Of a DNA stretch of 64,000 nucleotides, positions 15,609-39,831 are shown in pieces; position 1 is the stretch's first letter; every line of letters starts with the position of its first letter. Both the position numbers and the translations under genes were made by a program. Below the pieces are notes generated by a model. It ran no database searches. It saw nothing but the letters and a program-made list of their open reading frames with translations, and was not told where the DNA came from. Source of the DNA: a virus (taxonomy: Duplodnaviria; Caudoviricetes). The stretch is from the IMG/VR virus record IMGVR_UViG_3300050034_000334. One strand, 5' to 3'.

Positions 15609-16568
15609 ATGGCTAAGAAAAACGAGACCGCTGTAATCGCGAACGATAGCAAAGAAGCCCAGATCGCCGCACTCACCGCGCAGCTTGCCGGTGGCGCTGC
15701 TGCTACTTCCGCTCCGGTCGCGTCCGGCGACTTCGCCAAGAAGGCTGCCAACCGTGCGACCAACAATCTGATGGTCAGCATGGGATTGCTCAGCTTCCCA
15801 ATCAAGGTCTACAAGGCGACCGAGGTTGACACGGTCAGCTTCAACAACCTTCACACCACCTGCCACCACGCTCTCAAGCAGCAGGATTACTACTGCCCCG
15901 AGTGCTCCACTCCCGAAAAGGTTGCCGTGGTCGCAAAGGACCAGATCGTCAAGGGATACGAGTACGAGAAAGGCAAGTTCGCCATCTTCACTCCGGAAGA
16001 GATCGCTGGTTGCAAGGTTGCCGCCGACGATAGCCTGGAGATCATCAAGTTCGTCGACGAAAGCACGATCGACCCAATCTTCTACGAGTCGTCCTACTTC
16101 GTCGGACCGGACAAGGGTGCGGAAATGCAGTTCGCCCTGCTTCGCGCTGGCATGACCAAGACCGGCAAGGTTGCAATCGGCAAGGTTGCTCTCAAGGGTC
16201 GCGAGCAGACCGTGGTCATTCGCCCCTATGGCGATCGTGGCCTCATCCTGAACTACCTCTACTTCGACTACGAAGTTCGCTCCTTCGCCGGATGGGACAA
16301 GGTCCCGAACGCGGACGCACTCAGCGAGAAGTTCATGGCCGTCGCCACTCAGCTGGTCGACATGATGACCGAAGACTTCGCTCCCGAGACCATGAGCGAT
16401 TCGTACCTGGTCAACGCTCGCAAACTGATCAGCGCCAAGGCTGCCGGCCTGACCGCTCCCGTCATTGTCAAGGCTGCTGCCAAGGATGCCTCTGCGGATC
16501 TGGAAGCTGCTCTTGAGGCTTCACTGAACGCTGCCAAGATCAAGAAGGCTTCCAAGAAGGCGGCATAA
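15609..16568 (+). CDS. ku: Ku DNA end-binding protein (NHEJ)
   Basis: SMGLLSFPIKVYKAT, VSFNNLH..C, IVKGYEYEKG, IDPIFYESSYFVGP, ALLRAGM..TGKVAIG, LYFDYEVR; basic tail. Confidence 0.92.
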   Translation: MAKKNETAVIANDSKEAQIAALTAQLAGGAAATSAPVASGDFAKKAANRATNNLMVSMGLLSFPIKVYKATEVDTVSFNNLHTTCHHALKQQDYYCPECSTPEKVAVVAKDQIVKGYEYEKGKFAIFTPEEIAGCKVAADDSLEIIKFVDESTIDPIFYESSYFVGPDKGAEMQFALLRAGMTKTGKVAIGKVALKGREQTVVIRPYGDRGLILNYLYFDYEVRSFAGWDKVPNADALSEKFMAVATQLVDMMTEDFAPETMSDSYLVNARKLISAKAAGLTAPVIVKAAAKDASADLEAALEASLNAAKIKKASKKAA

Positions 16569-22150: not shown

Positions 22151-22966
22151 ATGAGCCAGATCCGCCTAATGCCAGAGTTGCTTCAAGAAGAGCCGATCTC
22201 CTCTATTCAGAAGTACATCAAGGACAGCCGGTATGGCTTCCAAGAGAAGTACAACGGCAAACGTCGTGTAATCATCCGCGACGGTGGCTATGTCTATTGC
22301 TTGAATAAAGAGAGCGAAGTTCGCGACCTCCCCAGAAGTTTGGCCGCCAAGCTCCTCAGTCATCCTCTTGACAGATTTGTCCTCGACTGCGAACTCATGC
22401 AGGACGAAAGCCTCAAGGTGTTTGATGCGCTCATCCTGGGCAAACACCTGCTGGGCGGCGAAGAGTACACCACTCGCCTGGACATGATCCGCACGGCATT
22501 CGGCAAGTTTGCTTACATCGAAGTTGCTTCGCTTGTAGTCACCGAAAGCGAGAAGAGGCAATTCGCGCAGCGTCTCGAAGGCGAGAATGCTGAGGGCATC
22601 GTAGTTCGCCGCCTGGATGCGACTTACAAGCAGGGTGATTCTCGTCAACATTTTAAGATAAAATTTTGGAAGACAGTTGATACTGTTGTTATCTCATTCG
22701 AACGTACTGATGCAGCAGGTCATCCTACCAGTGTAAATATCGGATGCTACGACAAGAAAGGTCAGCTTCAACGCATTTCAGGTGCCTCTCTGATAGGCAA
22801 AGATCCGAGCATTCGTCCTGGATCGGTTTTGGAAGTGAAATTTCTATACTCTACACCCACTGGTCACATAGTTCAACCGGCTATCTTGGGAGTCCGCGAT
22901 GATAAGAGTCCGGCTTCCTGTACGATGGATAAAGTTCTCAAATACCGCAACAAAAACTGGAAGTAA
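22151..22966 (+). CDS. lig: Minimal ATP-dependent DNA ligase (adenylation + OB fold)
   Basis: QEKYNG motif I, VLDCEL, KVFDAL, AEGIVVR, FKIK, LEVKF..QPAILGVRDDK. Confidence 0.85.
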   Translation: MSQIRLMPELLQEEPISSIQKYIKDSRYGFQEKYNGKRRVIIRDGGYVYCLNKESEVRDLPRSLAAKLLSHPLDRFVLDCELMQDESLKVFDALILGKHLLGGEEYTTRLDMIRTAFGKFAYIEVASLVVTESEKRQFAQRLEGENAEGIVVRRLDATYKQGDSRQHFKIKFWKTVDTVVISFERTDAAGHPTSVNIGCYDKKGQLQRISGASLIGKDPSIRPGSVLEVKFLYSTPTGHIVQPAILGVRDDKSPASCTMDKVLKYRNKNWK

Positions 22967-23009: not shown

Positions 23010-23633
23010 ATGCTTATCTATGTCGTCACCAATTCCATAAATGACAAAGTTTACGTTGGACAACATCGTGGCAATAGAGCAGAACATAGATTAAAGCGAC
23101 ATCTATACGAAGCAGCCCATGGTAGTCAAACTCACTTTCATCGAGCCATAAGGAAGTATGGAGCTTCCAATTTCCGGATACAAGTTCTCTGTAACGATGT
23201 TGGATCTTTGAAGGAATTAGACAATCTGGAACGTATCTGGATAATTCTACTTGATTCTAGAAATACAGGGTACAACCTGGCTCGAGGTGGATCATTTGAA
23301 AATCATGTGGGAGCCAAGGGTTACAAGCACACGGAAATCACTCGTAACCAGATAAGTGTGGCCACTAAAGGAAGACAACCCTCTATTCCCAAAGGTAGTA
23401 CCCGGTCTGAAGATTTCAAGAAGAAAATGAGGAAACCGAAATCGAAAGAACACAAGGAGGCTATGAAAGGCCCCAAATCTGCGTCTCACAGAGAGGCTAT
23501 CAGAGCATCCAAACAGGTCATTTCAGAAGAAACTAGATACCGGCTTCGAAAATCGGCTATCGCTAGAGGAATTCGTCAAAGATTAGCCAAAACCGAGCAT
23601 CTAGCGGTAGAGAACAGTGAGGATACTCCATGA
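23010..23633 (+). CDS. GIY-YIG homing endonuclease with NUMOD3 repeats
   Basis: LIYVVTN..KVYVGQ, FHRAIRKYG, GYNLARGG. Confidence 0.85.
   Translation: MLIYVVTNSINDKVYVGQHRGNRAEHRLKRHLYEAAHGSQTHFHRAIRKYGASNFRIQVLCNDVGSLKELDNLERIWIILLDSRNTGYNLARGGSFENHVGAKGYKHTEITRNQISVATKGRQPSIPKGSTRSEDFKKKMRKPKSKEHKEAMKGPKSASHREAIRASKQVISEETRYRLRKSAIARGIRQRLAKTEHLAVENSEDTP
23584..23613 (+). promoter_or_regulatory. Phage promoter motif TAGCCA-N18-TAGAGA, inside 3' end of HEG
   Basis: Upstream of 23630 gene. Confidence 0.65.
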
Positions 23634-24950: not shown

Positions 24951-26072
24951 ATGGGGAAAGCAAAAGTAACACCGAAGTACCAGCAGTATCTTGGAATCGT
25001 CCGAGATCACTCCGGCTCGATGAGTCATCTTGCTCACGCGGCGGCCAAGGATTACAACACCATCATCGAGGCTCTGAAAGGCGCGGCAGAGTCCAACGGC
25101 GTGAACTCGAATGTATGCGTCGTTCGCTGTGGAGTGGGTCATAGCGGCACCTTCAACTTCGAGAACCTGAACACTCCTCTCAAGGAAATCCAGCCGGTGG
25201 TCAACTACCAGACCGATGGCGGATGGACTCCTCTGTTCGATAGCGTGAACTCTGCCATCGACCAGGTCTCAATGAATGCTGACTCCGACTCCATGCCTGA
25301 CGCCTCCTTCCTCGTCATGGCAATCACTGACGGAGTGGACAACAAGTCCGCGATGACGGCCTCTGGTCTGGCGAATCGCATTCAGTCCTTGCAGACCACC
25401 GACAAGTGGACCTTCGTGTTCCGTGTTCCTATGGGATCCAAGAGGAGACTGGTCAATCTGGGTATCCCTGAGGGCAACATCCTCGAGTGGGTTCAGACTG
25501 TTCAGGGCCTCGAAGAGTCATCGGTCAAGACTGTGGCTGCTGTGTGGACCTACATGGATGAGCAGAGCAGGGGCATCACATCCACTCGCAGCTTCTATGC
25601 AAACCTGGACGACGTGAAGCCGGCAGAGGTTCGCAAGGAGATGACCAACATCACTGCGAAGGTCAAGTTCTTCAAGGTCGGCAAGCCCAAGCTCGTTATC
25701 GGAGTTTCCACCGGCTCCTATCCGACTTACTCCGTTCGCGACTTCATGGAGCGCAGGACTCGGAGACCCTATCAGCCTGGTTCGGCCTTCTACCAGTTGA
25801 CCAAGAGCGAGATTGTTCAGGAGTACAAGCAGATCGCCATTCGGAACAAGAAGTCCTTGGCTGTCTACGTTGGCTCTGAGGCTCGTGAGTTGCTGGGCAT
25901 CCCCACGGTAGGCAGCATCCGGTTGAAGCCTGGAAAGACGAAGGAGTTCACCATCTTCATCCAGTCAACCTCCTACAATCGGGTGCTCGTTACTGGGACG
26001 GAAGCCATGTACTACAAGGGTGCGACCTATCAACCCCGGTTGCGCTTCAAGAAAGCTGTCGCCGCCGCATGA
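24951..26072 (+). CDS. vWA-domain protein with C-terminal beta-domain
   Basis: MIDAS DHSGSM, GWTPLFDSV, AITDGVDN. Confidence 0.82.
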   Translation: MGKAKVTPKYQQYLGIVRDHSGSMSHLAHAAAKDYNTIIEALKGAAESNGVNSNVCVVRCGVGHSGTFNFENLNTPLKEIQPVVNYQTDGGWTPLFDSVNSAIDQVSMNADSDSMPDASFLVMAITDGVDNKSAMTASGLANRIQSLQTTDKWTFVFRVPMGSKRRLVNLGIPEGNILEWVQTVQGLEESSVKTVAAVWTYMDEQSRGITSTRSFYANLDDVKPAEVRKEMTNITAKVKFFKVGKPKLVIGVSTGSYPTYSVRDFMERRTRRPYQPGSAFYQLTKSEIVQEYKQIAIRNKKSLAVYVGSEARELLGIPTVGSIRLKPGKTKEFTIFIQSTSYNRVLVTGTEAMYYKGATYQPRLRFKKAVAAA

Positions 26073-26407
26073 TCACAAAAGTCAGCATGATCAGGGAGTA
26101 CAAGAAGGTCGTCCGGGAGTGCAAGGCTGAACTCAAGAATTGCTCTCCTGACGACTTGGGCATACCGGCCATCCAGGGGAACATGGCGGCGGCTGAACAT
26201 TGGATCAAGTTCCTCTCTGACCCGGATGTACCTGAACAGGGCGATCCGGAATTCGATGCAAAGATGGCGAAGCTGAAAGTCAGGGATGCTGCTCGAGCCA
26301 GAGAGTCCAAACTCGTCAAGAGGGCGGCGGCCAAGGCGGCTGCAAAAGCTGCCAAGGCGGCTGCAAAAGCTGCCAAGGCCAAGAAGAAGTCAGTCACAGT
26401 GGGATAA
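26069..26407 (+). CDS. Hypothetical protein with Ala/Lys histone-like tail
   Basis: KRAAAKAAAKAAKAAAKAAKAKKK. Confidence 0.65.
   Translation: MITKVSMIREYKKVVRECKAELKNCSPDDLGIPAIQGNMAAAEHWIKFLSDPDVPEQGDPEFDAKMAKLKVRDAARARESKLVKRAAAKAAAKAAKAAAKAAKAKKKSVTVG
26330..26379 (+). repeat. In-frame 21-bp tandem repeat
   Basis: GCCAAGGCGGCTGCAAAAGCT x2 plus partial. Confidence 0.9.
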
Positions 26408-26626
26408 CGAATCCTTCACGGATTTCAGTTCTCCCATCAGGACTTGTTCACGCTGTGTGAGTAGAGTGCGATTGAGTTCTGCTGCTCGGATCTTCTCTTC
26501 TTCCAGAACACGAATGGGCTGGCCTTCCACGGTCAGCCCTGAAAGATGAGCAAGTGCCTTACAGATAAGATTGAGGTCTTTGCTGGTGAATTCCAGGGAG
26601 TACTGTGCTAGTGCTGAGATCTTCAT
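26390..26626 (-). CDS. Hypothetical protein
   Basis: GAGGA SD and promoter motif upstream. Confidence 0.6.
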   Translation of the reverse strand: MKISALAQYSLEFTSKDLNLICKALAHLSGLTVEGQPIRVLEEEKIRAAELNRTLLTQREQVLMGELKSVKDSLSHCD

Positions 26627-26641
26627 TTTTGTATCCTCTAC

Positions 26642-26671
26642 CTTCTAGGGTGTGAGAACAGCGATCCGTTA
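26642..26671 (-). promoter_or_regulatory. Phage promoter motif TAACGG-N18-TAGAAG
   Basis: Same spacing as consensus. Confidence 0.6.
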
Positions 26672-26928
26672 CGCCATCAGCAAAAATAATTCTTCTCAGA
26701 CCCTTTATTTTTCCCAGTAACCGAGTAACAATCAGAGTGGCACCAAGAGGTACACGAGTGGATTGAGGTTGGTCATACAGAAATGTGGACTGACTACGCT
26801 TGTGCTTGTGGTGCTCGTCATGAGTGCGATCATCTAGGATGCAACGATCCTGAAAATTGTCCGATCAGGATTATTACTCAAAACGAGAAGAAAGTAGTAT
26901 ACTGTTGAAGTGGAAATCGGTAACATTC

Positions 26929-26952
26929 GACTGAGACTGAGATTGAGATTGA
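26929..26952 (+). repeat. Four tandem GAYTGA hexamers directly before SD (candidate RNA operator)
   Basis: GACTGA GACTGA GATTGA GATTGA AAGGA. Confidence 0.85.
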
Positions 26953-26965
26953 AAGGAAAAGCAAC

Positions 26966-27751
26966 ATGCCAAAGCTCCACGAACTGCTGGCTGTCCAGGG
27001 AAACTTGAGCGGACAGTCTACCAAGCTGAGAACTGATCTGTCGGTGCTCTTCAAGAGCAAGAAGCACCACTTCACGGAGACCACGAAGATCTTCATCTCC
27101 AGTGAAGAGGGAACTGCGAAGGAACCAGTTCTCGAAGATCAGCAGAACATTCAGACCACGGTTCTCAAGGAGATCACGTGGATTTGCCCACATCTGGCCA
27201 AGTCTCTCGATGTGGCGTTCCAAGTCGACATGGCCAACACCAAGGCGGCTGCTGACGTCATTCCCGAGGAAGGCGAAGAGCCTCTTCTGCGTAACATTCC
27301 AGCGACCACTCTCCTGCAGTTGGAGAAGAGGGTTGTGGAGTGGAAGGCCATGATCGCAGACATCCCCACCCTGGACCCTGCGAAGGGTTTCGAGGTTGAT
27401 CCGAACCACCGGGAAGCCAAGCAGGGCAAGGGCATCTACAAGGCTCGCGAAGTCAAGAAGCCTCGTACGCGCAAGGTCAAGGAAATCATCACGCTGTCGC
27501 CGGCAACGGACAAGTTCGCGGCCAACGTCCAGGTGTATGATGCTGACAAGACCATCGGCCAGACTCAGGAAACTGAGTGGAGTTCCATGATCACCCCGGC
27601 TCTCAAGGCGGATTTGCTGGATCGAGTGGAGACGCTGTTTCGTGCCGTGACCAAGGCTCGCGCCAAGGCCAACGAGTACTCCCTTGAGTCCAAGGAAAAG
27701 ATTGGTTCCACGCTGTTGGAGTACGTTTTCCAGCCGCTGCTTGGAGCCTAA
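26966..27751 (+). CDS. Uncharacterised protein linked to downstream structured RNA
   Basis: MPKLHELLAV..D.ANTKAAADV..IPATTLLQLEK..IPTLDP..RTRK..PAT.K..V..W...FRAV.KAR.KAN; recalled as a widespread unannotated family. Confidence 0.8.
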   Translation: MPKLHELLAVQGNLSGQSTKLRTDLSVLFKSKKHHFTETTKIFISSEEGTAKEPVLEDQQNIQTTVLKEITWICPHLAKSLDVAFQVDMANTKAAADVIPEEGEEPLLRNIPATTLLQLEKRVVEWKAMIADIPTLDPAKGFEVDPNHREAKQGKGIYKAREVKKPRTRKVKEIITLSPATDKFAANVQVYDADKTIGQTQETEWSSMITPALKADLLDRVETLFRAVTKARAKANEYSLESKEKIGSTLLEYVFQPLLGA

Positions 27752-27755
27752 CGAG

Positions 27756-28128
27756 TTGGGTGGACCCGAGAGGGTCAATCCAGGCTAAGACTAACACTCA
27801 GGTGTTTTGGCCTCCCCTCAAAGGGAGTAACCCCAAGACACCTGATCAGACTAAGGCTCAATCCGGCTTCGGAAACCGGACTTAGGCTTTCACCCAAAGG
27901 CTCATCGCGGAGGTAACGATAGTCAATCTAGCAGAACCGACTCTTCAGAGGTCGCTGGTTCGAATCCGGTAGGAGGCCCCACAAAAATTCATGCCTCCTT
28001 AGCTCAGCGGTAGAGCATCTGACTAAGACTTATGGTTCTGAGATGAAAGACGAGACGTTTTCCGCACCCAACATTATCGACTCGATATCGATGATACTTG
28101 GCGCCAGTCGCGTGGTAGCGGCTGGCGC
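27756..28128 (+). ncRNA. Highly structured ~375-nt non-coding RNA
   Basis: TTGGGTG/CACCCAA closing three hairpins; tRNA-like module; ATTATCGA/TCGATGAT and GCGCCAGTCGC/GCGGCTGGCGC hairpins; RRCTHA hexamers. Confidence 0.75.
27926..28044 (+). ncRNA. Circularly permuted tRNA-like module (YrlA-like architecture)
   Basis: TCAGA-GGTC-GCTGG TTCGAAT CCGGT-AGGAGGC-CCCA, linker, GCCTCCT-TA-GCTC AGCGGTA GAGC-A-TCTGA-CT; closed by CAGAACC/GGTTCTG. Confidence 0.8.
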
Positions 28129-28149
28129 GTCAGTGTAAGGAGACAGATT

Positions 28150-28341
28150 ATGCTAGGTCCAGCGTTCTACCTTCACGTCAAACACGCCACCAACGACACC
28201 TGGGTGCAAGTTGGCCCGAACCCCACTCATTGGGGTTTCTTCCACTTCAAGGAATCGGTAGAGAGCATGGAAAAGCTCTTCAAGTCTCTCGGTCTTGAAA
28301 CCAGGATTGAAGAGTTCCAGACAGACTACGACGACAGATGA
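28150..28341 (+). CDS. Hypothetical protein
   Basis: AAGGAG SD. Confidence 0.6.
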   Translation: MLGPAFYLHVKHATNDTWVQVGPNPTHWGFFHFKESVESMEKLFKSLGLETRIEEFQTDYDDR

Positions 28342-28512
28342 TCACTTGAAGCGATCTCTCTGAAGACGAATCAGTCGGGTAATCAGCAAGTCCAGTCTAT
28401 CCATAATTGGAGTTGGAACATTGTCTCTATGTGGTAGATCTTGGACTTCTTCGTGAAGAACGTCGAAATCGTGTAACAATACCTTTGCTTCTTCTTGATC
28501 CTCTACTCTCAT
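28342..28512 (-). CDS. Small hypothetical protein (56 aa)
   Basis: MRVEDQEEAKVLLHD..; found manually. Confidence 0.45.
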   Translation of the reverse strand: MRVEDQEEAKVLLHDFDVLHEEVQDLPHRDNVPTPIMDRLDLLITRLIRLQRDRFK

Positions 28513-28527
28513 GATGTCACCCGTTCC

Positions 28528-29016
28528 CTAGAAGGAATATGGGAGATGAAAGGTGTCTATGAGTCCTGGTGTTCCTGACGCCACTCTTTCCAGAATCTCT
28601 TCAGCACCAGGTTCGTATAGACTCCATCCCATTGTGTTTGATTCATGGTCAGCGATCGTGTTTGCTGCTCGATTTGGGGAGTACTCCATGAGCAACTTGT
28701 TAGGAACTTTCAAGTTCAGCAGTTGGAAAAGTCGAGGAGAAACCGGATACGGAATTGGAAGACTGTCTGATTTACGAATCATTGCCATAATTCTTTTTGC
28801 ACATCTTGAGACCAGTTTCTTGTAGACAACACGATCCACCTGATCGAAGGGCAGCTGATAGAATCTCCCGTCGTACATATTGTGTTTCACGTATTGGACA
28901 AACCCATCCTCGTCAAACTCATCAATTATCCTGGCGAGTTCTGGACTCCAATCCGCCAGAGTACCTGAGTGTTCGATCTTGGACTTCTTCAGCAAAATGC
29001 TGTGGAAATTACTCAC
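28528..29016 (-). CDS. Hypothetical protein starting MSNFHSILLKKS
   Basis: GTG start with GGAGG SD. Confidence 0.65.
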   Translation of the reverse strand: MSNFHSILLKKSKIEHSGTLADWSPELARIIDEFDEDGFVQYVKHNMYDGRFYQLPFDQVDRVVYKKLVSRCAKRIMAMIRKSDSLPIPYPVSPRLFQLLNLKVPNKLLMEYSPNRAANTIADHESNTMGWSLYEPGAEEILERVASGTPGLIDTFHLPYSF

Positions 29017-29302
29017 TGGCTGCCTCCAGCTTGCTCTTGTTTGCATAGGCATCCAGCCAAGCATTCATCACATCGTCAAGTGTATATCCTTTTTTGATCT
29101 CACATTTGGTGAGAGTAGGAGTTGTCCCGACAAAATTGCATTTGCAGGTGGCAATCTGCTCTCCAGTTGGCTTGTACAGAGTCAGGCTGCTGGGTAGAGT
29201 AGGCTGTACCACGGGAGCCTTCTGAACGAAGACTGGCTTGACCACCGGCTGGCTGGCGTGGATTGGGATGCTCAGTATAAGCGCAAGCAAGAAATGCTGC
29301 AT
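29009..29302 (-). CDS. Secreted hypothetical protein
   Basis: Signal peptide MQHFLLALILSIPIHA. Confidence 0.6.
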   Translation of the reverse strand: MQHFLLALILSIPIHASQPVVKPVFVQKAPVVQPTLPSSLTLYKPTGEQIATCKCNFVGTTPTLTKCEIKKGYTLDDVMNAWLDAYANKSKLEAASE

Positions 29303-30183
29303 AGGGCGGCCTCCTTATGGGCTGATTTCTCCTTCATTTGTTCACTCTTCTTCCTTCTAGCTTCTGCATTCCACTGCTTGATCGCTATTTCCTTCTGTTT
29401 TAGTCTCATCTCAGGAGTGTAACTAAGCAAGTTACCTCTAGTCCAGCCTCTAGAGAGATAACTATCCAATTCTTCTTTTAGAATTTTCTTCAATTTTCCT
29501 TCCCTATTGACAAGTACACCAGTGCCTCTGAGAGAAGTACCACGTTTCCAGCCTTCCTGTAAGTATGAGTTCAAACTGGTCTGAGGGATTCTCTCCGTTA
29601 GGCTTCCTCTAGTGACTAACACCGTGCTCTTCATCTTCTCATGGATAACCTGAAGAGCACCCTTGGCAGCTTTGCTACTCTTGATGATTTTGCTTTGTCG
29701 TACTCTGACCTCTGGATCAGCAAAGTATCGCTTGATCCTGTCACTTTGGACCTTTCTCTTTTCCGGATCTTGAAAATACTCGGTATTCTTACGTCTAAGA
29801 GTAGAGAGAGCTTGTTCAGTGTGATGATATCCTGAAATTCCTTCTCCTCCCTTTGTTAGATTGTACCCAAATCTAGAGTCAAATGTCTTTAGAGTAGCAA
29901 TGAAGTGAACTTCCATTTCATTTAGTTCGGAAATAGGTCCTGAACCCAGTATGGCAACTTCAAAGTTTTCTCTTCCGTGTTTCTTCACTGCATTTCGAAA
30001 GTACACCGTACAGAAACCTAGTTTCTTCAAGCACAAACCATGCCTTTCAGCCAAGGTTCTTTCTGTCTTCCCCACGTAGATTTTACCACTTTGGATATGT
30101 CTAAAACCGTACACGACGTTACTGATATTCCAGATTTCACTGGTACTGAGAACAGGTATCCAGACAGGGTCATTGATGATCAT
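29272..30183 (-). CDS. GIY-YIG homing endonuclease
   Basis: VVYGFRH..KIYVGKT, FRNAVKKHG, GYNLTKGGEG; AT-rich; C-terminal GW.RG repeats. Confidence 0.85.
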   Translation of the reverse strand: MIINDPVWIPVLSTSEIWNISNVVYGFRHIQSGKIYVGKTERTLAERHGLCLKKLGFCTVYFRNAVKKHGRENFEVAILGSGPISELNEMEVHFIATLKTFDSRFGYNLTKGGEGISGYHHTEQALSTLRRKNTEYFQDPEKRKVQSDRIKRYFADPEVRVRQSKIIKSSKAAKGALQVIHEKMKSTVLVTRGSLTERIPQTSLNSYLQEGWKRGTSLRGTGVLVNREGKLKKILKEELDSYLSRGWTRGNLLSYTPEMRLKQKEIAIKQWNAEARRKKSEQMKEKSAHKEAALCSISCLRLY

Positions 30184-30246: not shown

Positions 30247-32496
30247 CTATTCTGTTTCCACAACGACAATAGCTGGGAATTCTTTGATTCCCATAAGCAG
30301 AAGGGCATCAAATCTGTGGCCGCCTTCAAGAATGTAGTAGTCCTCAAGGTTACTCAGATTGTCTATCACTACAATGAGAGGATTAATCTCCATAGACTCT
30401 ATAATTTCACTCTTGAGTCTTTTCGTATACCGATCTTCACTGCTTGAATGTGGAACATACTCGTACTCCTTCTCGGATTTCATTTTCACAACACGAACAC
30501 CTGGAAGTTCAGTCCAATCCTCATCGTTGTTATAGCCAGCTGAAATGGACTCAAGATTAGGAATCGTTCCTCTGACCTTCAGACTACCACAGGTGTCTCC
30601 CAGCATCTTCGGATAGAGCTTGTCGAGTTCTGACAGGGTCTCGTCATCGTCATCAACAGCTGCAGTCTTCGAGATGCAAGGGATCCTCCAACCCATGAGG
30701 TTCAAGTTGTCCACCTTGAATCCGAGCCTCTTCACCATCGCCACATAGAGAGGAGTTTTGTCCGGGTTGTGACTCGCGATCACCAACTCGCCATACTTCT
30801 GCAGCCAGTGATTGAGGACCCTCTTGACTTCTGCCAACGATCCCTTGCCCCTCGAATTCGGAGTCTTGGTCAGCTGCTGCATGGGATCAAAAGCATCCAT
30901 GCCGATCCGCTGCAGTCCGACCTGGTAGATGTTGGGAATCATCCCACTCTTGACCACCATGAGTTCGTACTCTCCAATGGTGGCCTCTTCCACGATCTTG
31001 TCTCCCGAGAGAGCCATGTAACGCTGTCCTGTTTCAGAGACGGCCACGGCCTCCTTGTGAGAACCTCCCATGTTGAATTCGTAGTAGGATCCCTGGCCAT
31101 TGTAGGAGTCAGGAACCTCCGTCCCTCCGAGTTTCTTCACCATGGCCTGAGAGGCATAGTTGTCATTTTCGATGTAGGTCTTGGCGTGCTTGTATCCCAT
31201 CTCAGCAATCTTGCCGAGAGCACTCTTCATGAGTTCGGGACCAAATCCTCTGTAGCGAATGTCGCTGTCAAGTCTGTTGAGATAGGCTTCACCATCTGCT
31301 CCAAGATCCACTGTGAAGTTTACCACAACCTTGTCAGTGAAGTTGACCTTGGTCAGCCAGTCATGTGCTTCCGGCTTCAGAGTACCCTCGAAGAAGAGAC
31401 GCTGTGGAGATCCTGTGACCTGGACCTTGAGCCGGGGAGTCTCATAGTCCTCGACAATTTTGGTGCTGGCGACCTTTGCAGGCTCAATCTCCTTGAGCTT
31501 CTTTTCAATCCCATATTCATTGCTGAAGTACTCTACGGCAGCCTTCTCATCGAAGTCAGCGAATCCGTAGTTTGGTTCCTTCATGACTATTCGATGATCA
31601 AGATCTCCATCTCCTCCATCCATTCTTGAATTCTGACCTGTGTCATTGATCAGATCAGCAGCTTCGGAAAGAGCAAGATTCTGAGCCTTCTCGTTCAGTG
31701 TCTTTTTATCAGTGTCTTTCTCTTTCCCAAAATACGTGTAAGCCTTGTTAGAACCCATCTGTATCAGCTCCAGCTTGGCCCAACGCAAAAACCATACGAT
31801 GCGATAGTTCTTATGAAGATTGTTCTTGGCCCAGTTGATCTCATCCTGGATGTCCTGATGAAGAGAGATGGCAACACCGGACTTACCATCCACAGGAGGT
31901 AGAGCATTCTGAATTATGCTATTCAGGCCGGCAAACATCTCGTCATAGTTGGCCTCAGCTTCGATCTGAAAGCTGGCTTGCTTCTCAGGCGGAGGAGTCG
32001 TGTGCAGTAGATGATCCGCAGGCAACTCACAGGCTTTGCATTCTGGACTACCCTCTTGAGGAACGAACTTGTGACGACCGTAAGGCCACCACTCTCTGTG
32101 GGCGGCGGCTGTCTTAGGATCCTCATCCATGTTATCTTCCGCGACGTCAAGGAACTCCTCGACCGGAACCTCATGGATGGCCTGTACCCGCGTCTCCCTC
32201 CAACCTGGATCAAATTGGGCGAGATAGACCGCTTCAGCTTCAGGCAAGGATTCGAAGCCCAACATCACCTTGTACTCATCGAAGGAACCATCCTCCTTGA
32301 GTTGCTCCACCACATAAGCGTGCGGGGAGTGGTGATCATCTCCGACATACACGTCCACGGCCTCTCCATCGCCTCTCCCGGTTGTATCGGGGATGAAGCC
32401 ATAGTCGGCTTGCAGGATGCGATTGTGCCGGCGCTCGCCCTTCCACTTTTCAACCGTTACGGGAAGCCCTCTAAAGAGGTAATCGTGATCGTCCAT
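30247..32496 (-). CDS. Polyvalent mosaic protein: inorganic pyrophosphatase-like, GNAT, ParB-like domains
   Basis: DYGFIPDT..DGEAVDVYVG..FDEYKVMLGF; RYRGFG..YIENDNYASQ; INPLIV..ILEGGHRF. Confidence 0.8.
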   Translation of the reverse strand: MDDHDYLFRGLPVTVEKWKGERRHNRILQADYGFIPDTTGRGDGEAVDVYVGDDHHSPHAYVVEQLKEDGSFDEYKVMLGFESLPEAEAVYLAQFDPGWRETRVQAIHEVPVEEFLDVAEDNMDEDPKTAAAHREWWPYGRHKFVPQEGSPECKACELPADHLLHTTPPPEKQASFQIEAEANYDEMFAGLNSIIQNALPPVDGKSGVAISLHQDIQDEINWAKNNLHKNYRIVWFLRWAKLELIQMGSNKAYTYFGKEKDTDKKTLNEKAQNLALSEAADLINDTGQNSRMDGGDGDLDHRIVMKEPNYGFADFDEKAAVEYFSNEYGIEKKLKEIEPAKVASTKIVEDYETPRLKVQVTGSPQRLFFEGTLKPEAHDWLTKVNFTDKVVVNFTVDLGADGEAYLNRLDSDIRYRGFGPELMKSALGKIAEMGYKHAKTYIENDNYASQAMVKKLGGTEVPDSYNGQGSYYEFNMGGSHKEAVAVSETGQRYMALSGDKIVEEATIGEYELMVVKSGMIPNIYQVGLQRIGMDAFDPMQQLTKTPNSRGKGSLAEVKRVLNHWLQKYGELVIASHNPDKTPLYVAMVKRLGFKVDNLNLMGWRIPCISKTAAVDDDDETLSELDKLYPKMLGDTCGSLKVRGTIPNLESISAGYNNDEDWTELPGVRVVKMKSEKEYEYVPHSSSEDRYTKRLKSEIIESMEINPLIVVIDNLSNLEDYYILEGGHRFDALLLMGIKEFPAIVVVETE

Positions 32497-33257: not shown

Positions 33258-36242
33258 CTAATGTTCGAAAGCACTAATGAATATTCTTCTGTTTTTAGTT
33301 GGCAACTTGATTGCAACATTAGCTGCTTCTTCTAAGATTGCTTCCTTTCGATGGAACTTGTCAGCGCAGTCAGGACAGACGACCTTCTTGTTCACTTCGA
33401 GGACATCGTCACCATTGAGATGTTCACCACATTCCTGACAGTTCTCGACGCCTTCCCGGGGATCGCTGGCCTTCTTTCTAATAAAGGTTGGCATCTTGGT
33501 CTTTCTGCCAACGAAGATGTTCATTCCTTCCAGCTTGATTCCATCAGAGGCTGATACATATTCGTCGTCGATAGGATTCAACTTCCAATCAACCGAACTG
33601 TTCTCCACTATCTGCTGGGTATCCGCATCCCAGCCACGACCTCCTTGGAACTGCCCTTCGAGTACCTGACCACCTTCTACTGGAACAGCAATGACTCCAT
33701 AATCGTGATAGTAGTCAATCAGAGAACGCTGCTCCTCATTGAAGTTTTTAGGGTATTCTTCATCATTATCTCCATTATTCATGCTCTCCATCCAGACATT
33801 GTACTCTGCGTTGGTGGTCCTCTCAAAATTCTCGAGCCACTCTCTGATCTGGGCTGAAGTGCCGTTCACTCCTGACGAGACAAGGGTTCCTGCGCTTGCT
33901 CCATAGTACCTGAAGTAGAGAGCATAGATCTCTGGTTCTTCACTAGCCTTTTTGGTGGTCTTGATCTTTGGGCACTTCAGTATTCTACCCACAGCTAGTG
34001 AGTTTAGTGCATCGATCTTGATTCCTTCTGAAACAGATACCTCGAGGGAAGATGGCTCCAATCTCCATGTTCCGTATTGCCCCTGGCGCCTGGTCATGGG
34101 ACTGCGTTCTCCACTGAAAGTGCCTGTGTATATCCGGCCTCCTTCAGTGGGCACAATAGCAGGATTTAGACCCTCAGCATAGTAGTTGCATAGCTCTTCC
34201 TGATCATGAGCCAACGTGTCTTCATTGAGGTATTTGTTGAATGTGGTCTTGTCAAAATCATCATCTAGCCACTGCTTGATGGCTTCAAGAGACCCAGAAA
34301 ACCCAGTTGCGATCCCATCAGTAACTCCCAGCAGTTCCATGAACAGCAAGGAGTATTTTTCCTCCTCGTCACTTCCATTCAGACGGAACTTGGGAAGGTG
34401 GATCTGCTTACCCACAAAGTTGGCATTCATCCCCTCAATCTTGATGCCTTCAGAAGCAGTGACCTTTGTGTCAGAGGGGAACATCCTCCAACTGGTGCTG
34501 GCATTCCAACGCATCTCTTGGACCAACCCTCCCTCTGCAGGGATGGCGATTGCATCCAAGGTGCCAAACCTCTTGCACAGTTCCTTCTGATCAGGAGTGA
34601 AGTTGAGAGGAAACTCATCAGAATCTTCTGGTCTGTTTCCTGGCCAATCCAGGCTCGTGTTGAGGGCCTTGACATGTTTGTCGTATATGGAATATGTGGT
34701 CTTTTCGAAGTTGTTGACCCACTCCACGATCTGTTTGGCAGTCCCGTTGAACCCGGTCGTATAGATGGTGTCCGGCTTCCTACCATTGAAGCACAGAGCA
34801 TAGACCGTGTCATCTTCGGGAGTGAGAGGTTCCTCAGGAGGATTGTTTCTCATCACTTCGGAGTCTCTCAGTTCCCCGGCTTGCTTGGCTTTTCCTTCAA
34901 CCAAGCCATGAATCAGATCCTTGGACTCTTCGAACAGAGTGACAATGCCTGGATGGTAATCTTTCGGGTTGTCCTTGATGTCCTGCTCAATCTCTTCCAG
35001 GGTAAACCACTCGATGCTGTCATTCTCCCACTCATGACCGAAGGTCGGCTGGAAGGCGAACTCCTCGTCCACCACACCGATGAAATTTGAATATGTGAAA
35101 TCTTCTTTCTTAAACACGAAGGCAGCATGAGTCTTGATGGGACCTGAATACCCGGTCTCTTCCTGCAACTCAGTCCTAGCACTCTCTTCGGGAGACATAT
35201 CCTTCTTGACCGCTCCACCCAGGGTGCCCCAGCAGTTGCCCTCTTCGACCTTATCGCTTCTCCATGCCAGACAGATCCGCTTGGTCTCGCTGCAGATCGG
35301 AACGACACCAGAGGACTGAGCTTTCCAACTGTCGTCTGAAGCAGTCCTCTTGATCACTTCATTGAACGGAATGAAGGAGTCCTTGTCACCCTTGTTCTTC
35401 ATTTCCAGACGAATCCCTTCAGCCGTCGAAACAGTATTGCCTTCATCCGATTCTTTGAAGTTAGGAGATATCCATGCACGGACTTTTCCACCCTCTGTGG
35501 GAAAGGCATACAGAGCGAAGTATTTGGCCGTGAACTGGTTCTTCTCACTGTCACGTGCCCACTCAGTGATCTCAGGTAGCGTCCCGGTCATGCTTGTGGG
35601 CTGCAGCATGGGAGTTCTCTGGTCTTGCATGGTGACATAGAACAGAGAGTACCGATCATCCTCTTCCTCGCCAGCCGTATGAGGTCCTCCCTTTTGGGTG
35701 CGGACCATTCCCTGTCCTGGCTGGTTCTTCGTGGTGTGAGCACAGAACTTCAGGGCCTCGTCGTTGGACAATGGGACTCCGAACCAGACATCATTCACGC
35801 TGTTTTCACCAGAGGACTCGACTACCTTACCATCTTTCAATCCCCAGGTGTGCTGATGCCAGCCTTGAAAGTTGTGGCCATACCCGATGACGATGGTGTC
35901 TATCTTCCCCTTTTCATAGAGAGTCGCGATGTTCCAGTGACAGTCGCCTTCAGACATGGGGATAAGAGATGGACGTCCTCTGTAAGCAACTCCTCTATGA
36001 GCGATAGCTGTTGAGTCGGGATCGTTCTTTAGTTGACCTCCACTTGTAGTGTCTCCTGGCGCCAGACTACGAAGTTTCTTGGTCAGTTCTGCTGAAGATC
36101 CCTCCTTGAATAGAGCAGGATTCATCTCTTCAAGAGGCAATATCTCGTTCTCATCCTGGCGGTTGTCAGGATCTAGAGCCCATCCGTTAGACATTGGTTC
36201 GAATTCTGGACGGGTAGCGAGAGGAGGATTCTTTCTGCTCAC
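33258..36242 (-). CDS. Polyvalent mosaic protein: transglutaminase-like, Nudix hydrolase and four copies of a novel domain
   Basis: GDCHWN..QHTWG; WGTLGGAVKKDMSPEESARTELQEETG; repeated Y[AS]LxF..GT..I.EW..P.EGG..EGI. Confidence 0.8.
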   Translation of the reverse strand: MSRKNPPLATRPEFEPMSNGWALDPDNRQDENEILPLEEMNPALFKEGSSAELTKKLRSLAPGDTTSGGQLKNDPDSTAIAHRGVAYRGRPSLIPMSEGDCHWNIATLYEKGKIDTIVIGYGHNFQGWHQHTWGLKDGKVVESSGENSVNDVWFGVPLSNDEALKFCAHTTKNQPGQGMVRTQKGGPHTAGEEEDDRYSLFYVTMQDQRTPMLQPTSMTGTLPEITEWARDSEKNQFTAKYFALYAFPTEGGKVRAWISPNFKESDEGNTVSTAEGIRLEMKNKGDKDSFIPFNEVIKRTASDDSWKAQSSGVVPICSETKRICLAWRSDKVEEGNCWGTLGGAVKKDMSPEESARTELQEETGYSGPIKTHAAFVFKKEDFTYSNFIGVVDEEFAFQPTFGHEWENDSIEWFTLEEIEQDIKDNPKDYHPGIVTLFEESKDLIHGLVEGKAKQAGELRDSEVMRNNPPEEPLTPEDDTVYALCFNGRKPDTIYTTGFNGTAKQIVEWVNNFEKTTYSIYDKHVKALNTSLDWPGNRPEDSDEFPLNFTPDQKELCKRFGTLDAIAIPAEGGLVQEMRWNASTSWRMFPSDTKVTASEGIKIEGMNANFVGKQIHLPKFRLNGSDEEEKYSLLFMELLGVTDGIATGFSGSLEAIKQWLDDDFDKTTFNKYLNEDTLAHDQEELCNYYAEGLNPAIVPTEGGRIYTGTFSGERSPMTRRQGQYGTWRLEPSSLEVSVSEGIKIDALNSLAVGRILKCPKIKTTKKASEEPEIYALYFRYYGASAGTLVSSGVNGTSAQIREWLENFERTTNAEYNVWMESMNNGDNDEEYPKNFNEEQRSLIDYYHDYGVIAVPVEGGQVLEGQFQGGRGWDADTQQIVENSSVDWKLNPIDDEYVSASDGIKLEGMNIFVGRKTKMPTFIRKKASDPREGVENCQECGEHLNGDDVLEVNKKVVCPDCADKFHRKEAILEEAANVAIKLPTKNRRIFISAFEH

Positions 36243-38924: not shown

Positions 38925-38994
38925 CGAAACTCCCGAACACACGATGTTCTACAATGTATTTAGAAGTTGGAGCGGTGTGCGGTATTATGTAGAT

Positions 38995-39831
38995 ATGAGC
39001 GTAGATACCCTGAATTCCTTCATAGAAGAGCGGGAAGAGATTCGTGTGAGGAAGGAATCGGGCCAGCCATGGCCCTGGACTTCCAACGTGATTTTCTTGA
39101 CCTACAAGTTCTGTAACGTCTGTCGCGAGGATGATCGAACCACGCGGTGGATTGCCAAGAACTGGAGAGAACCACATGCTGACGACCCCGATCTTTGGTT
39201 TGCCCTGGTCATAGCTCGCCGCGTTCTCAACTGGCCCTGGAGCATGCAAGCTCTTGGATACCCGGTGCCCTGGGATTCAGCTTACTTCACCTCAGTCACC
39301 ACATCCCTGATGACCTCTGGCCAGAAATGCTACGACACAGCCTATCAGCTTCTCGTTCAAGGACAGAAGGGTGACAAGGCTGAGAACATGATCAAGCACA
39401 TCCTCAATCCTCTCTGGGAACATCGTGAACACATCCGACCCAGGCAGTACGATGAGTTGCGAACCTTCTTCAATCGACTCTCAGCCTTCAAGTACATGGG
39501 TCTGTTTTACACCGGCCAGGTCGTGGCTGATCTGAAGTATGCTCAACTGACGAATGCTCTAGACTGGGATTCGTTTGCTGTGCCAGGTCCTGGAAGCGAA
39601 CGCGGCCTCAATCGAGTTCTCGGCAAGCCCAAGGAGTGTGCTTGGACTGTCAAGGGTTGGACCGAAGCACTAGAAAATCTGAGACCTCAGATCAGAATGA
39701 AGATCCATGCTCAAGATCTCCAGAACTGCCTCTGTGAGTTCGACAAGTATGAGCGCATCAGACTGGGAGAAGGTCGGGTGCGTCCATATCACCCTGCTCC
39801 TCCTATGGTGACTGACGGGAGTTCGTCATGA
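38995..39831 (+). CDS. aGPT-pyrophosphorylase / 5hmdU-kinase-helical-domain-like DNA hypermodification protein
   Basis: FIEEREEIR..PWPWT..YKFCNV.REDDRTTRWI, QVVADL, PGPGSERGL, LQNCLCEFDKYER. Confidence 0.7.
   Translation: MSVDTLNSFIEEREEIRVRKESGQPWPWTSNVIFLTYKFCNVCREDDRTTRWIAKNWREPHADDPDLWFALVIARRVLNWPWSMQALGYPVPWDSAYFTSVTTSLMTSGQKCYDTAYQLLVQGQKGDKAENMIKHILNPLWEHREHIRPRQYDELRTFFNRLSAFKYMGLFYTGQVVADLKYAQLTNALDWDSFAVPGPGSERGLNRVLGKPKECAWTVKGWTEALENLRPQIRMKIHAQDLQNCLCEFDKYERIRLGEGRVRPYHPAPPMVTDGSSS

What the first reader, a model, noticed from the sequence alone, without database searches (positions are those of the whole stretch)
26929..28128. Candidate new RNA-protein system: unknown gene flanked by shared hexamers and a large structured ncRNA
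Seen: four tandem GAYTGA hexamers (26929-26952) abut the SD of the 261-aa ORF. Directly after its stop is ~375 nt with no credible ORF and dense pairing: TTGGGTG/CACCCAA enclosing GACCC-GAGA-GGGTC, a 12-bp CAGGTGTTTTGG/CCAAGACACCTG stem and TCCGG/CCGGA, then a tRNA-like module and two more hairpins. Related RRCT[AC]A hexamers recur as tandems in the RNA: GGCTAA GACTAA CACTCA (27783-27800), GACTAA GGCTCA (27849-27860), GACTAA GACTTA (28021-28032). Inference: the protein binds hexamer repeats, represses its own translation and assembles on the ncRNA as an RNP, for example a tRNA decoy or counter-defence complex. I know of no named system with this layout.
Basis: partly seen in the sequence, partly recalled or inferred. 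Interest (0 to 1): 0.9.

Follow-up and report, generated by a model that had tools for sequence, protein, structure and literature searches.

The report
Phage DUF7873 protein with tRNA-mimic RNA
A jumbo-phage gene of unknown function (DUF7873) is followed by a conserved, strongly transcribed RNA of about 300 bases that has rows of six-base repeats and a back-to-front tRNA look-alike ending in CCA; this looks like an undescribed RNA-protein particle related to bacterial Y RNAs, usually without their Ro60 partner.

Summary
The 261-aa ORF is Pfam DUF7873. The ORF-free stretch after it is a two-domain RNA.

- **Domain 1** is a helix-closed junction with in-phase hexamers (consensus GGCUCA, period 6).
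- **Domain 2** is a YrlA-like permuted tRNA mimic: T-arm, 7-bp acceptor stem, encoded N-CCA, D-arm.

A covariance model of the tRNA-like head hit downstream of DUF7873, on the same strand, in every source searched (the window plus 47 loci). All 26 of its base pairs covary.

Four metatranscriptomes cover only this unit, and the flanks are silent. Depth falls about tenfold at the CCA, which suggests tRNA-type processing.

Ro60 is absent from the window and from 16 of 18 complete relatives, although the closest relative has it next door. The Ro60-binding motif is missing.

Hexamer arrays before the start codon occur in 8 of 40 loci, against 1.5 expected. Self-repression is therefore plausible for some lineages but not a general feature.

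No binding or function was tested. I found no paper on the pair. This scan has met the DUF7873 and tRNA-mimic pair before on other DNA. The hexamer code, the encoded CCA, the expression data and the Ro60 nuance were worked out here.

The parts
26929..26952 (+). 5'-UTR array of four in-phase hexamers (GACTGA GACTGA GATTGA GATTGA), ending 13 nt before the ATG and abutting the Shine-Dalgarno AAGGA
   Evidence: Read directly. Similar arrays (>=3 in-phase NNNTNA within 90 nt of the start) occur in 8 of 40 DUF7873 loci, against 1.5+/-1.1 in Markov simulations and 1 of 95 control 5' regions. The array is absent in the closest relative L049. A strain variant has 2-3 copies.
26966..27751 (+). DUF7873 protein gene (261 aa)
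   Evidence: Pfam PF25283, E 7e-57. 561 homologues. AF2 model pLDDT 90: helical bundle plus a long beta-hairpin at 163-202, preceded by the basic patch REVKKPRTRKVK. No match in the PDB, the viral structure library or the ESM Atlas apart from the family itself, and only unnamed proteins in AlphaFold DB clusters.
27756..27897 (+). RNA domain 1: helix P1 (27756-62 with 27891-97) closing a junction that holds P2 (27763-76), hexamer array A (27783-27800), lineage-specific 12-bp hairpin P3 (27799-27844), hexamer array B (27843-27860) and hairpin P4 (27862-27880)
   Evidence: The same layout is seen in the 38 distinct loci inspected. On a plain MAFFT alignment, P1/P2 are 85% paired against 37-56% when slid, with covariation 0.41 against 0.06-0.14. 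P3 shows compensatory changes against L049. A 16-nt strain deletion lies in its loop.
27899..27922 (+). Linker: conserved hexamer GGCTCA (27899-27904) directly after P1, and motif ACGATAG (27916-27922)
   Evidence: GGCTYA follows P1 in nearly all loci. ACGATAG is present in 9 of 40 loci. The Ro60-type motif GNCGAAN0-1G is absent from the window's RNA.
27933..28042 (+). RNA domain 2, the YrlA-like permuted tRNA mimic. Closing stem 27933-38 with 28034-39; anticodon-stem-like helix 27945-49 with 28018-22; T-arm 27954-70; acceptor 3' strand 27971-77; C + CCA 27978-81; loop 27982-92; acceptor 5' strand 27993-99; D-arm 28002-16; hexamer pair GACTAA GACTTA 28021-32 in the internal loop
   Evidence: Rfam YrlA 37.1 bits, E 5.6e-6, below the gathering score of 69. 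Own model R1 scores 107.7 bits here and 34-124 bits in 47 other loci. 96.7% of cells are paired and 26 of 26 pairs show compensatory changes. N-CCA after the 7-bp acceptor stem (all seven pairs form in 37 of 38 heads) occurs in 34 of 38 heads.
27979..27993 (+). Inferred processing sites: 3' end at CCA (27981) and an RNase P-type cut before G27993 (U at -1)
   Evidence: In run X15 the contig at depth 297 ends at 27982 and the read-through contig has depth 16. X16 and X17 also drop 10-fold or more here. The cuts themselves are inferred, not mapped.
28043..28131 (+). 3' tail conserved with relatives (28043-28073), then two hairpins (28074-28097 and 28100-28131); likely the end of the unit
   Evidence: Adaptor-abutted RNA contig ends lie at 28066 and 28073. 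In 11 of 37 loci a genuine tRNA starts 23-29 nt after the head, at the equivalent place. A G+C-rich terminal hairpin is also seen in L001, L003 and L007. No canonical terminator was found by scan.

Best explanation
The region is one phage transcription unit that makes the DUF7873 protein and a two-domain non-coding RNA of about 300 nt.

Shown here:
- The gene and the RNA always travel together, on the same strand.
- Both RNA domains are held by covarying helices.
- The unit is transcribed far above its flanks in nature.
- The RNA can out-accumulate the coding part.
- Abundance drops sharply right after an encoded CCA.

Inferred:
- RNase P cuts before G27993. The site has a perfect 7-bp acceptor stem, U at -1 and an encoded CCA.
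- Exonucleases trim the trailer back to CCA 27981. The result is a two-piece tRNA-shaped head with a free CCA end and no anticodon loop.
- Several copies of DUF7873 bind the in-phase single-stranded hexamers (consensus GGCUCA; T4 and A6 were fixed by the search pattern) in the junction of domain 1 and in the head's internal loop, building an RNP.
- In about one lineage in five, including this one, the same hexamers next to the Shine-Dalgarno sequence let surplus protein repress its own translation.
- The particle uses the tRNA elbow and acceptor-CCA end to engage a factor that recognises that end of tRNA. It acts either as a decoy or sponge for a host tRNA-directed enzyme or toxin, or as a Y-RNA-like tether.
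For: - **Co-occurrence:** the head model hits downstream of DUF7873 on the + strand in the window and all 47 loci searched. These include a Verrucomicrobia MAG and two cultured phage groups at 32-34% protein identity.
- **Structure:** 26 of 26 head pairs have compensatory changes and 96.7% of cells are paired, against about 42% when slid. P1/P2 of domain 1 are 85% paired against 37-56%.
- **Hexamers:** period-6 signal at z of about 12, with 16-40 times enrichment of in-phase pairs. 36 of 40 heads have them in the internal loop.
- **CCA:** N-CCA sits exactly after the acceptor stem in 34 of 38 heads whatever the loop length (7-111 nt), and U is at -1 in 26 of 34.
- **Expression:** in four metatranscriptomes from separate studies, depth is 150-300 over roughly 26838-28073 against 0-6 in the flanks. 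In X17 an exact-match RNA contig has depth 665 against 20-40 for the CDS. In X15 depth falls from 297 to 16 at 27982.
- **5' UTR arrays:** 8 of 40 loci against 1.5 expected and 1 of 95 controls.
- **No other constant partner:** TROVE in 5 of 40 records, RtcB in 1 of 39, CCA-adding enzyme in 0 of 39.
- **Protein:** a basic patch sits beside a long conserved beta-hairpin.
Against: - No binding, RNP or processing experiment exists. The protein-hexamer link rests on linkage and motif logic only.
- DUF7873 has no recognisable RNA-binding fold and its pI is neutral.
- The RNA runs are contigs, so strand, exact ends and true levels cannot be read. The part 3' of the CCA is rare in three runs, which might mean it is unstable rather than part of a two-piece RNA.
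- Upstream arrays are missing in 80% of loci and in the nearest relative. In the window they could be a slippage repeat.
- A host factor could bind the hexamers instead.
- Ro60 lies beside the unit in the closest relative.
Confidence: 0.55

Rival explanations
1. The RNA is an ordinary YrlA-type Y RNA whose working partner is Ro60/Rsr, encoded elsewhere in this 342-kb phage or by the host. DUF7873 is an accessory or merely a neighbour.
For: - YrlA is the best Rfam match.
- In the closest relative, L049, a Ro60 vWA gene (PF25045, E 1e-46) ends about 620 nt before DUF7873.
- Where TROVE occurs in related phages it is often close: 1.5-5 kb away in 3 of 5 records.
- Only 64 kb of this genome could be searched.
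Against: - There is no TROVE or Ro60 in the window, by Pfam and by tblastn with five phage Ro60 queries.
- 16 of 18 relatives that are at least 90% complete have no TROVE.
- Phages with Ro60 carry a second, weaker YrlA-like RNA right beside the Ro60 gene, separate from the DUF7873-linked RNA.
- The Ro60-contact motif GNCGAAN0-1G is absent here and present in only 3 of 40 loci.
- Scores are far below Rfam's gathering threshold.
Confidence: 0.15
2. The RNA is mainly a cis-acting 3' element. The tRNA-like head is a processing and stabilising signal for the DUF7873 mRNA and for downstream tRNAs, cut by RNase P. The hexamers are bound by a host factor or serve folding. There is no dedicated RNP.
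For: - The CDS and the RNA up to the CCA lie on single RNA contigs in X15 and X20.
- The unit sits in or next to tRNA clusters in many phages, and 11 of 37 loci have a tRNA 23-29 nt after the head.
- An encoded CCA with U at -1 fits a pure processing signal.
Against: - A processing signal needs neither the conserved 140-nt hexamer domain nor a fully tRNA-like D/T elbow.
- In X17 the RNA exceeds the CDS at least 15-fold, as a stable separate species would.
- Linkage to one protein family down to 32% identity argues for a trans partnership.
Confidence: 0.15
3. The hexamers are not binding sites. They are a by-product of repeat slippage or of RNA tertiary structure, and the upstream array in the window is a chance microsatellite.
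For: - The window's upstream array is two perfect dimers, which is typical of slippage.
- Copy number varies between strains.
- It is absent in L049.
Against: - Periodicity, register and consensus are kept across RNAs whose proteins share only 42-60% identity, with different hexamer sequences.
- Three separate places in the RNA keep them.
- 5' UTR arrays recur independently in 8 lineages.
Confidence: 0.08
4. It is a true permuted or split tRNA gene whose halves are rejoined into a decoding tRNA.
For: The 3' half precedes the 5' half. Acceptor, D and T arms are perfect and the CCA is encoded. A real tRNA-Asn with the same D and T arms occurs in one RNA run.
Against: No anticodon loop exists. 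The anticodon stem runs into a covarying closing helix with a hexamer loop in all loci. ARAGORN finds no tRNA, permuted or otherwise.
Confidence: 0.02

Closest known systems
YrlA-type bacterial and phage Y RNAs with Ro60/Rsr (Rfam RF02553; Chen et al. 2014, PMC4201824; Wang et al. 2018, bioRxiv 10.1101/312249), especially M. smegmatis YrlA
   Same: Both have the T-arm, capped acceptor stem and D-arm in that order, with tRNA-like D and T loops and a closing stem in place of the anticodon loop. Both are encoded next to a protein partner on the same strand. M. smegmatis YrlA likewise has a 7-bp acceptor stem, is cut by RNase P and carries a CCA.
   Different: The constant neighbour is DUF7873, not Ro60. 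Scores are about half of Rfam's threshold. The GNCGAAN0-1G Ro60 motif is missing. The CCA is encoded rather than added, in 34 of 38 heads. An extra 5' domain of about 140 nt carries period-6 hexamer arrays. Phages that do have Ro60 carry a separate YrlA-like RNA beside it.
[quoted passage not shown]
   Same: A tRNA-like non-coding RNA predicted to partner a protein other than Ro60.
   Different: The partner there is a Band-7/SPFH protein next to RtcB, and the RNA looks like an authentic tRNA. Here the partner has no Band-7 match. RtcB is in 1 of 39 relatives. The RNA is permuted and has no anticodon loop.
TRAP with the trp leader and trpG/trpP 5' UTRs; CsrA with CsrB-type sponge RNAs (from general knowledge; analogy only)
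   Same: Many short, regularly spaced single-stranded motifs are bound by a multimeric protein. Read in another phase, the hexamers are NAG triplets with 3-nt spacers. In those systems the same motifs near a Shine-Dalgarno sequence give translational repression.
   Different: No sequence or fold relation exists. The spacing is strictly 6 nt, the motif differs, and binding is untested.
Two-piece tmRNA from permuted ssrA genes, and permuted tRNA genes of Cyanidioschyzon (from general knowledge)
   Same: The acceptor 3' strand with CCA is encoded upstream of the acceptor 5' strand, and processing inside the gene gives a two-piece tRNA-like end.
   Different: There is no tag reading frame, no pseudoknots and no ARAGORN or Rfam tmRNA call. 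There is no anticodon loop to restore.

Membership tests
Pfam DUF7873 (PF25283) | Full-length match above the curated cut-off (27 bits) | tested here: met
   193.3 bits, E 7.4e-57, residues 1-256 on profile positions 1-243 of 244
YrlA Y RNA (Rfam RF02553) | T-arm, capped acceptor stem, D-arm in that order, with a closing stem, supported by covariation | tested here: met
   Rfam alignment. 26 of 26 pairs have compensatory changes and 96.7% of cells are paired.
YrlA Y RNA (Rfam RF02553) | Score at or above Rfam's gathering threshold (69 bits) | tested here: not met
   37.1 bits in the window; 31.7-32.4 bits for the DUF7873-linked RNAs of relatives; no match at gathering in the 64-kb window
YrlA Y RNA (Rfam RF02553) | Encoded within about 4 kb of a Ro60/TROVE gene on the same strand (criterion of Chen et al. 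2014) | tested here: not met
   No TROVE or Ro60 in the window. 5 of 40 related viral records have TROVE, including 2 of 18 complete ones. The criterion is met in L049. The rest of this 342-kb genome could not be searched.
YrlA Y RNA (Rfam RF02553) | GNCGAAN0-1G motif near the 5' end (proposed Ro60 contact) | tested here: not met
   None in 27752-28140; found in 3 of 40 loci; ACGATAG instead in 9 of 40
tRNA gene (canonical or permuted) | A 7-nt anticodon loop on a 5-bp stem; detection by ARAGORN | tested here: not met
   0 genes in the window. The Rfam tRNA hit is 16 bits against a threshold of 29. The anticodon stem continues into a closing helix.
Two-piece (permuted) tmRNA | Tag reading frame and pseudoknots; ARAGORN or Rfam tmRNA call | tested here: not met
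   No tmRNA by ARAGORN or Rfam
Band-7 / b7a-tRNA pair | Partner protein with a Band-7 (SPFH) domain, next to RtcB | tested here: not met
   Pfam at E <= 0.1 gives only DUF7873. No SPFH structure appears among the fold matches. RtcB is in 1 of 39 related records.
Protein-sequestering or protein-scaffolding repeat RNA (TRAP- or Csr-like logic) | Direct binding of a multimeric protein to the repeated motif | not testable with these tools
   Only the repeat architecture and the linkage are shown.

The most novel reading that the evidence does not exclude
DUF7873 multimers assemble on the hexamer arrays and display a processed, anticodon-less tRNA body with a free CCA end. This body acts as a decoy for host immune toxins or enzymes that act on the acceptor end of tRNA: enzymes that add nucleotides to, pyrophosphorylate or acetylate the CCA end. 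The CCA-repeat tail seen on a minority of molecules would be a trace of such action, or of repeated CCA addition. This would be a new class of phage counter-defence RNP and a Ro60-independent branch of Y-RNA biology.
Probability: 0.15. Interest if true: 0.9.

Novelty: new variant of a known kind. Interest (0 to 1): 0.75.

Why it matters
Y RNAs are understood only as partners of Ro60. Here a Y-RNA-like tRNA mimic is tied to a different, structurally unassigned protein family. The pair occurs in dozens of phage lineages, including cultured Rhizobium and Vibrio phages checked here; Gordonia, Klebsiella and Serratia phages also carry the protein. In this phage it is among the most strongly expressed stretches seen in peat metatranscriptomes.

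The finding supplies a concrete and testable hexamer code for an unknown RNA-binding protein. It also gives a natural two-piece tRNA mimic with an encoded CCA, and a possible translational feedback loop. If the particle manipulates tRNA-directed host enzymes or defences, it opens a new mechanism in phage-host conflict. I found no paper that mentions DUF7873.

Tried and rejected
- **tRNA or tmRNA gene:** ARAGORN and Rfam were negative.
- **DNA similarity:** there was no hit to 50,697 phage records or to the nearest held record G001.
- **Single-sequence pattern search in viral contigs:** this found nothing. The alignment-based search worked.
- **Fold of DUF7873:** searches against the PDB (Foldseek and VIA wide), BFVD, AlphaFold DB clusters and the ESM Atlas returned only generic coiled-coil matches or the family itself. 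The PDB profile, PADLOC, NCBIfam, PHROGs and ESM feature searches gave nothing.
- **Automatic consensus fold of domain 1:** RNAalifold on the first MAFFT alignment failed because of a register shift. It was replaced by end-anchored extraction and a named structure.
- **Upstream gene as a divergent Ro60:** the 373-aa protein (24951-26072) was rejected. It has no similarity to the L049 Ro60 fragment and no Pfam hit.
- **Phage-borne RNA repair or CCA-adding partner:** RtcB was found in 1 of 39 records and PolyA_pol in 0 of 39.
- **Bacterial genomes:** the scan gave only one locus for this subfamily.
- **Promoter and terminator scan:** no canonical site was found.
- **Hexamers pairing with each other:** the CUAAG/CUUAG pairing in the single-sequence fold is not kept in relatives.
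Full report
**1. The observation**

- Four in-phase hexamers, GACTGA GACTGA GATTGA GATTGA, occupy 26929-26952.
- They are followed by AAGGAAAAGCAAC and the ATG at 26966.
- The ORF ends at 27751.
- The next 389 nt have no credible ORF. They fold 4.2 standard deviations better than dinucleotide shuffles.

The stems are all there:
- TTGGGTG/CACCCAA at 27756-62 and 27891-97.
- GACCC-GAGA-GGGTC at 27763-76.
- The 12-bp stem at 27799-27810 and 27833-27844.
- TCCGG/CCGGA at 27862-66 and 27876-80.

The three hexamer tandems in the RNA are also as described.

**2. The protein**

The ORF is a full-length member of Pfam DUF7873 (E 7e-57).
- It has 561 detectable homologues, all annotated as hypothetical.
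- No paper in the searchable library mentions the family.
- An AlphaFold model built from 54 homologues is confident (pLDDT 90). It shows a bundle of long helices and a long beta-hairpin (163-202) preceded by the basic patch REVKKPRTRKVK.
- No solved or predicted structure outside the family matches it convincingly.
- PHROGs, PADLOC, NCBIfam and a PDB profile search give nothing.

**3. The tRNA-like module**

ARAGORN finds no tRNA in the whole window. The best Rfam match is YrlA, the Y-RNA-like tRNA mimic, at 27933-28042. It scores 37.1 bits (E 5.6e-6), well under the family's gathering score of 69.

The anatomy is that of a permuted tRNA, in this order:
1. Closing stem (27933-38 with 28034-39).
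2. A 5-bp anticodon-stem-like helix (27945-49 with 28018-22).
3. T-arm (27954-70).
4. Acceptor 3' strand AGGAGGC (27971-77).
5. C + CCA (27978-81).
6. An 11-nt A-rich loop.
7. Acceptor 5' strand GCCTCCT (27993-99).
8. A canonical D-arm (28002-16).

There is no anticodon loop. In its place is an internal loop carrying GACTAA GACTTA.

**4. Conservation with the gene**

Homologous loci came from several sources: exact-protein look-ups, 39 IMG/VR contigs, one Verrucomicrobia MAG and two cultured phages. All have a gene-free gap after DUF7873.

A covariance model of the head (R1), built from 17 seeds, was run on these loci.
- It hits on the same strand downstream of the gene in the window and all 47 loci searched, at 34-124 bits.
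- Protein identity in these loci goes down to 32-34%.
- On the resulting alignment 96.7% of cells are paired, against about 42% with slid partners.
- All 26 pairs show compensatory changes.
- The unfitted MAFFT seed alignment already showed 20 of 26 pairs.

**5. Domain 1**

The 140 nt between the stop codon and the head share one layout in the 38 distinct loci inspected:
1. P1 (TTYGGGTG / CACCCRAA).
2. A small hairpin P2.
3. An array of in-phase hexamers.
4. An optional hairpin.
5. More hexamers.
6. The P1 3' strand.
7. Then always GGCTYA.

On a plain MAFFT alignment of 30 sequences, P1/P2 are 85% paired against 37-56% when slid. The covariation score is 0.41 against 0.06-0.14, and 0 of 500 shuffles reach it. 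One pair switches between U-A (12 sequences) and C-G (10 sequences). The window's 12-bp hairpin is lineage-specific. It shows compensatory changes against the 77%-identity relative L049, and a 16-nt strain deletion lies in its loop.

**6. The hexamers**

- Across 39 RNAs, same-base autocorrelation peaks at lag 6 (0.327) and lag 12 (0.297), against 0.251 +/- 0.006 in shuffles. It dips at lags 3 and 9. Coding DNA in the same loci shows period 3 instead.
- The consensus from 201 arrayed hexamers is G/A, G/A, C/T, T, C/n, A. T4 and A6 were fixed by the search pattern.
- RRYTNA density is 2.42 per 100 nt in the RNA, against 0.75 in the CDS and 0.74 in distant DNA. In-phase tandem pairs occur at 0.396 per 100 nt, against 0.024 and 0.009.
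- 36 of 40 heads carry at least 2 in-phase hexamers in the internal loop, against 4.3 expected.
- The hexamers sit in junctions and loops. The one pairing predicted between them in the window is not kept in relatives.
- Read in another phase, the repeat is NAG plus a 3-nt spacer. That recalls the triplet arrays bound by ring proteins such as TRAP. This is an analogy only.

**7. The upstream array**

With the strict motif, only the window (3 tandem pairs) and L001 (1 pair) have tandem hexamers before the start codon. The closest relative, L049, has none.

With the looser periodic pattern (at least 3 in-phase NNNTNA within 90 nt of the start), 8 of 40 loci have an array. The arrays usually end 4-24 nt before the ATG. 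Markov simulations give 1.5 +/- 1.1, and 0 of 1000 simulations reach 8. Only 1 of 95 upstream regions of other Shine-Dalgarno-bearing ORFs in the same loci has one. A strain variant in run X20 has GACTCA GACTGA in place of the four copies.

Self-repression is therefore a reasonable reading for a minority of lineages. It is not a family rule.

**8. Expression**

Six metatranscriptome runs from peat, permafrost and wetland hold 62-70% of the words of this stretch. I laid four of them, from separate studies, on 25000-30000.
- Contigs of depth 150-300 cover only about 26838-28073 (to 28154 in X20). Flanking genes have depth 0-6, which argues against DNA carry-over.
- In X17, a 70-nt exact-match contig inside the RNA (27885-27954) has depth 665, against 20-40 for the CDS.
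- In X15, the main contig (depth 297) ends at 27982, one base after the CCA. The read-through contig has depth 16.
- X16 and X17 show similar drops.
- Adaptor-abutted ends lie at 26838, 28066 and 28073.

These are contigs, so strand, exact ends and levels are not established.

**9. The CCA**

In 34 of 38 heads, N-CCA follows the 7-bp acceptor stem exactly, whatever the length of the capping loop (7-111 nt); all seven acceptor pairs form in 37 of 38 heads. The discriminator is C in 22, and the base before G1 is U in 26 of 34. Chance would give CCA at that position once in 64.

Together with the depth drop, this points to RNase P cutting and 3' trimming to a free CCA. That process was shown experimentally for M. 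smegmatis YrlA, where the CCA is added after transcription (PMC4201824). Typical YrlA has a closed loop and no free CCA (bioRxiv 10.1101/312249).

**10. Ro60**

- The window has no TROVE or Ro60 gene, either by Pfam on all large ORFs or by tblastn with five phage Ro60 queries.
- TROVE occurs in 5 of 40 related viral records, and in 2 of 18 that are at least 90% complete.
- The closest relative, L049, has a Ro60 vWA gene about 620 nt upstream of DUF7873.
- In three of the five TROVE-bearing phages, TROVE lies within 1.5-5 kb.
- Three of those phages carry a second, weaker YrlA-like RNA directly beside the Ro60 gene, distinct from the DUF7873-linked RNA.
- The proposed Ro60-contact motif GNCGAAN0-1G is absent from the window's RNA and occurs in 3 of 40 loci.

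The DUF7873 RNA is therefore best seen as a sister class to YrlA with its own partner, sometimes co-located with Ro60. RtcB (1 of 39 records) and a CCA-adding enzyme (0 of 39) are not partners.

**11. Context**

- The window comes from a 342-kb contig. It carries PolA, Ku, a DNA ligase, a 5-hmdU DNA kinase and giant GNAT and NUDIX proteins. That fits a jumbo phage from peat.
- In 11 of 37 loci a genuine tRNA, with varied anticodons, starts 23-29 nt after the head.
- In cultured Rhizobium and Vibrio phages the gene sits inside the tRNA cluster.
- The window itself has no tRNA.

**12. Verdict**

The feature is real, conserved and expressed. The most likely mechanism is an RNP in which DUF7873 reads the hexamer arrays and the RNA presents a processed tRNA mimic. 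Binding and function are inferred, not shown.

Earlier notes of this scan had already reported DUF7873 next to tRNA-mimic RNAs on other DNA. One of them led me to the Band-7/b7a-tRNA idea of Burroughs and Aravind, which I read in bioRxiv 10.1101/312249.

- The period-6 hexamer code and its three positions in the RNA.
- The covarying domain 1.
- The near-universal encoded CCA.
- The metatranscriptome evidence.
- The enrichment of arrays in the 5' UTR.
- The finding that Ro60, where present, has its own second RNA.

Noticed in passing
window 27953-27982 (run X15): A 54-nt metatranscriptome contig matches 27953-27982 exactly and then continues as (CAC)8. That reads as the encoded CCA followed by about eight more CCA units. 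Its depth is 13, against 297 for the main RNA contig. It could be repeated CCA addition to the processed end, or an artefact.
   Followed up: no
window 27950-28017 (run X17): A low-depth contig joins 28017 to 27950 through ACCGGCTGTTAACCGGTT. This is a genuine tRNA-Asn(GTT) whose D and T arms match the head, so the mimic may derive from or copy a tRNA-Asn.
   Followed up: no
window 26753; 27815-27830: All three strains in runs X15-X17 share one different sequence upstream of 26753, which suggests a recombination breakpoint. One strain lacks 16 nt in the loop of the 12-bp hairpin.
   Followed up: no
L049:1-540: The closest relative of the window's DUF7873 (77% identity) has a Ro60 vWA-domain gene two genes upstream (E 1e-46). 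The window has unrelated 373-aa and 112-aa genes at that place.
   Followed up: yes
L050:525-589; L053:2437-2551(-); L054:2485-2540: Phages that carry both Ro60 and DUF7873 have a second, weaker YrlA-like RNA directly beside the TROVE gene.
   Followed up: partly
L003:6438-8699 (also L004-L006): A 753-aa protein with a weak Cas12f1-like TNB hit follows the RNA and tRNA after a gap of about 340 nt, which might hold a guide-like RNA.
   Followed up: no
window 15609-16568; 22151-22966; 23010-23633; 38944-39831: The window also holds Ku, an ATP-dependent DNA ligase, a GIY-YIG/NUMOD3 homing-endonuclease-like gene and a 5-hmdU DNA kinase. These suggest phage end-joining repair and thymidine hypermodification.
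   Followed up: no
window 4178-8794(-); 30247-32496(-); 33258-36242(-): Three very large proteins have only small recognisable domains: 1538 aa with several GNAT domains, 749 aa with an InPase domain, and 994 aa with a NUDIX domain.
   Followed up: no
L003:4930-4990; L010-L013, L016 upstream regions: Many relatives share a promoter-like pattern before DUF7873 (AATTGCG... about 17 nt ...GTGTATATT). A similar AATTTGCG follows the terminal hairpin of the unit. The window lacks it.
   Followed up: no
window 28074-28097: A genuine tRNA begins at this place in 11 relatives. The window instead has an 8-bp hairpin with a 7-nt loop, possibly a tRNA remnant. One RNA contig end (28073) lies at its base.
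   Followed up: partly
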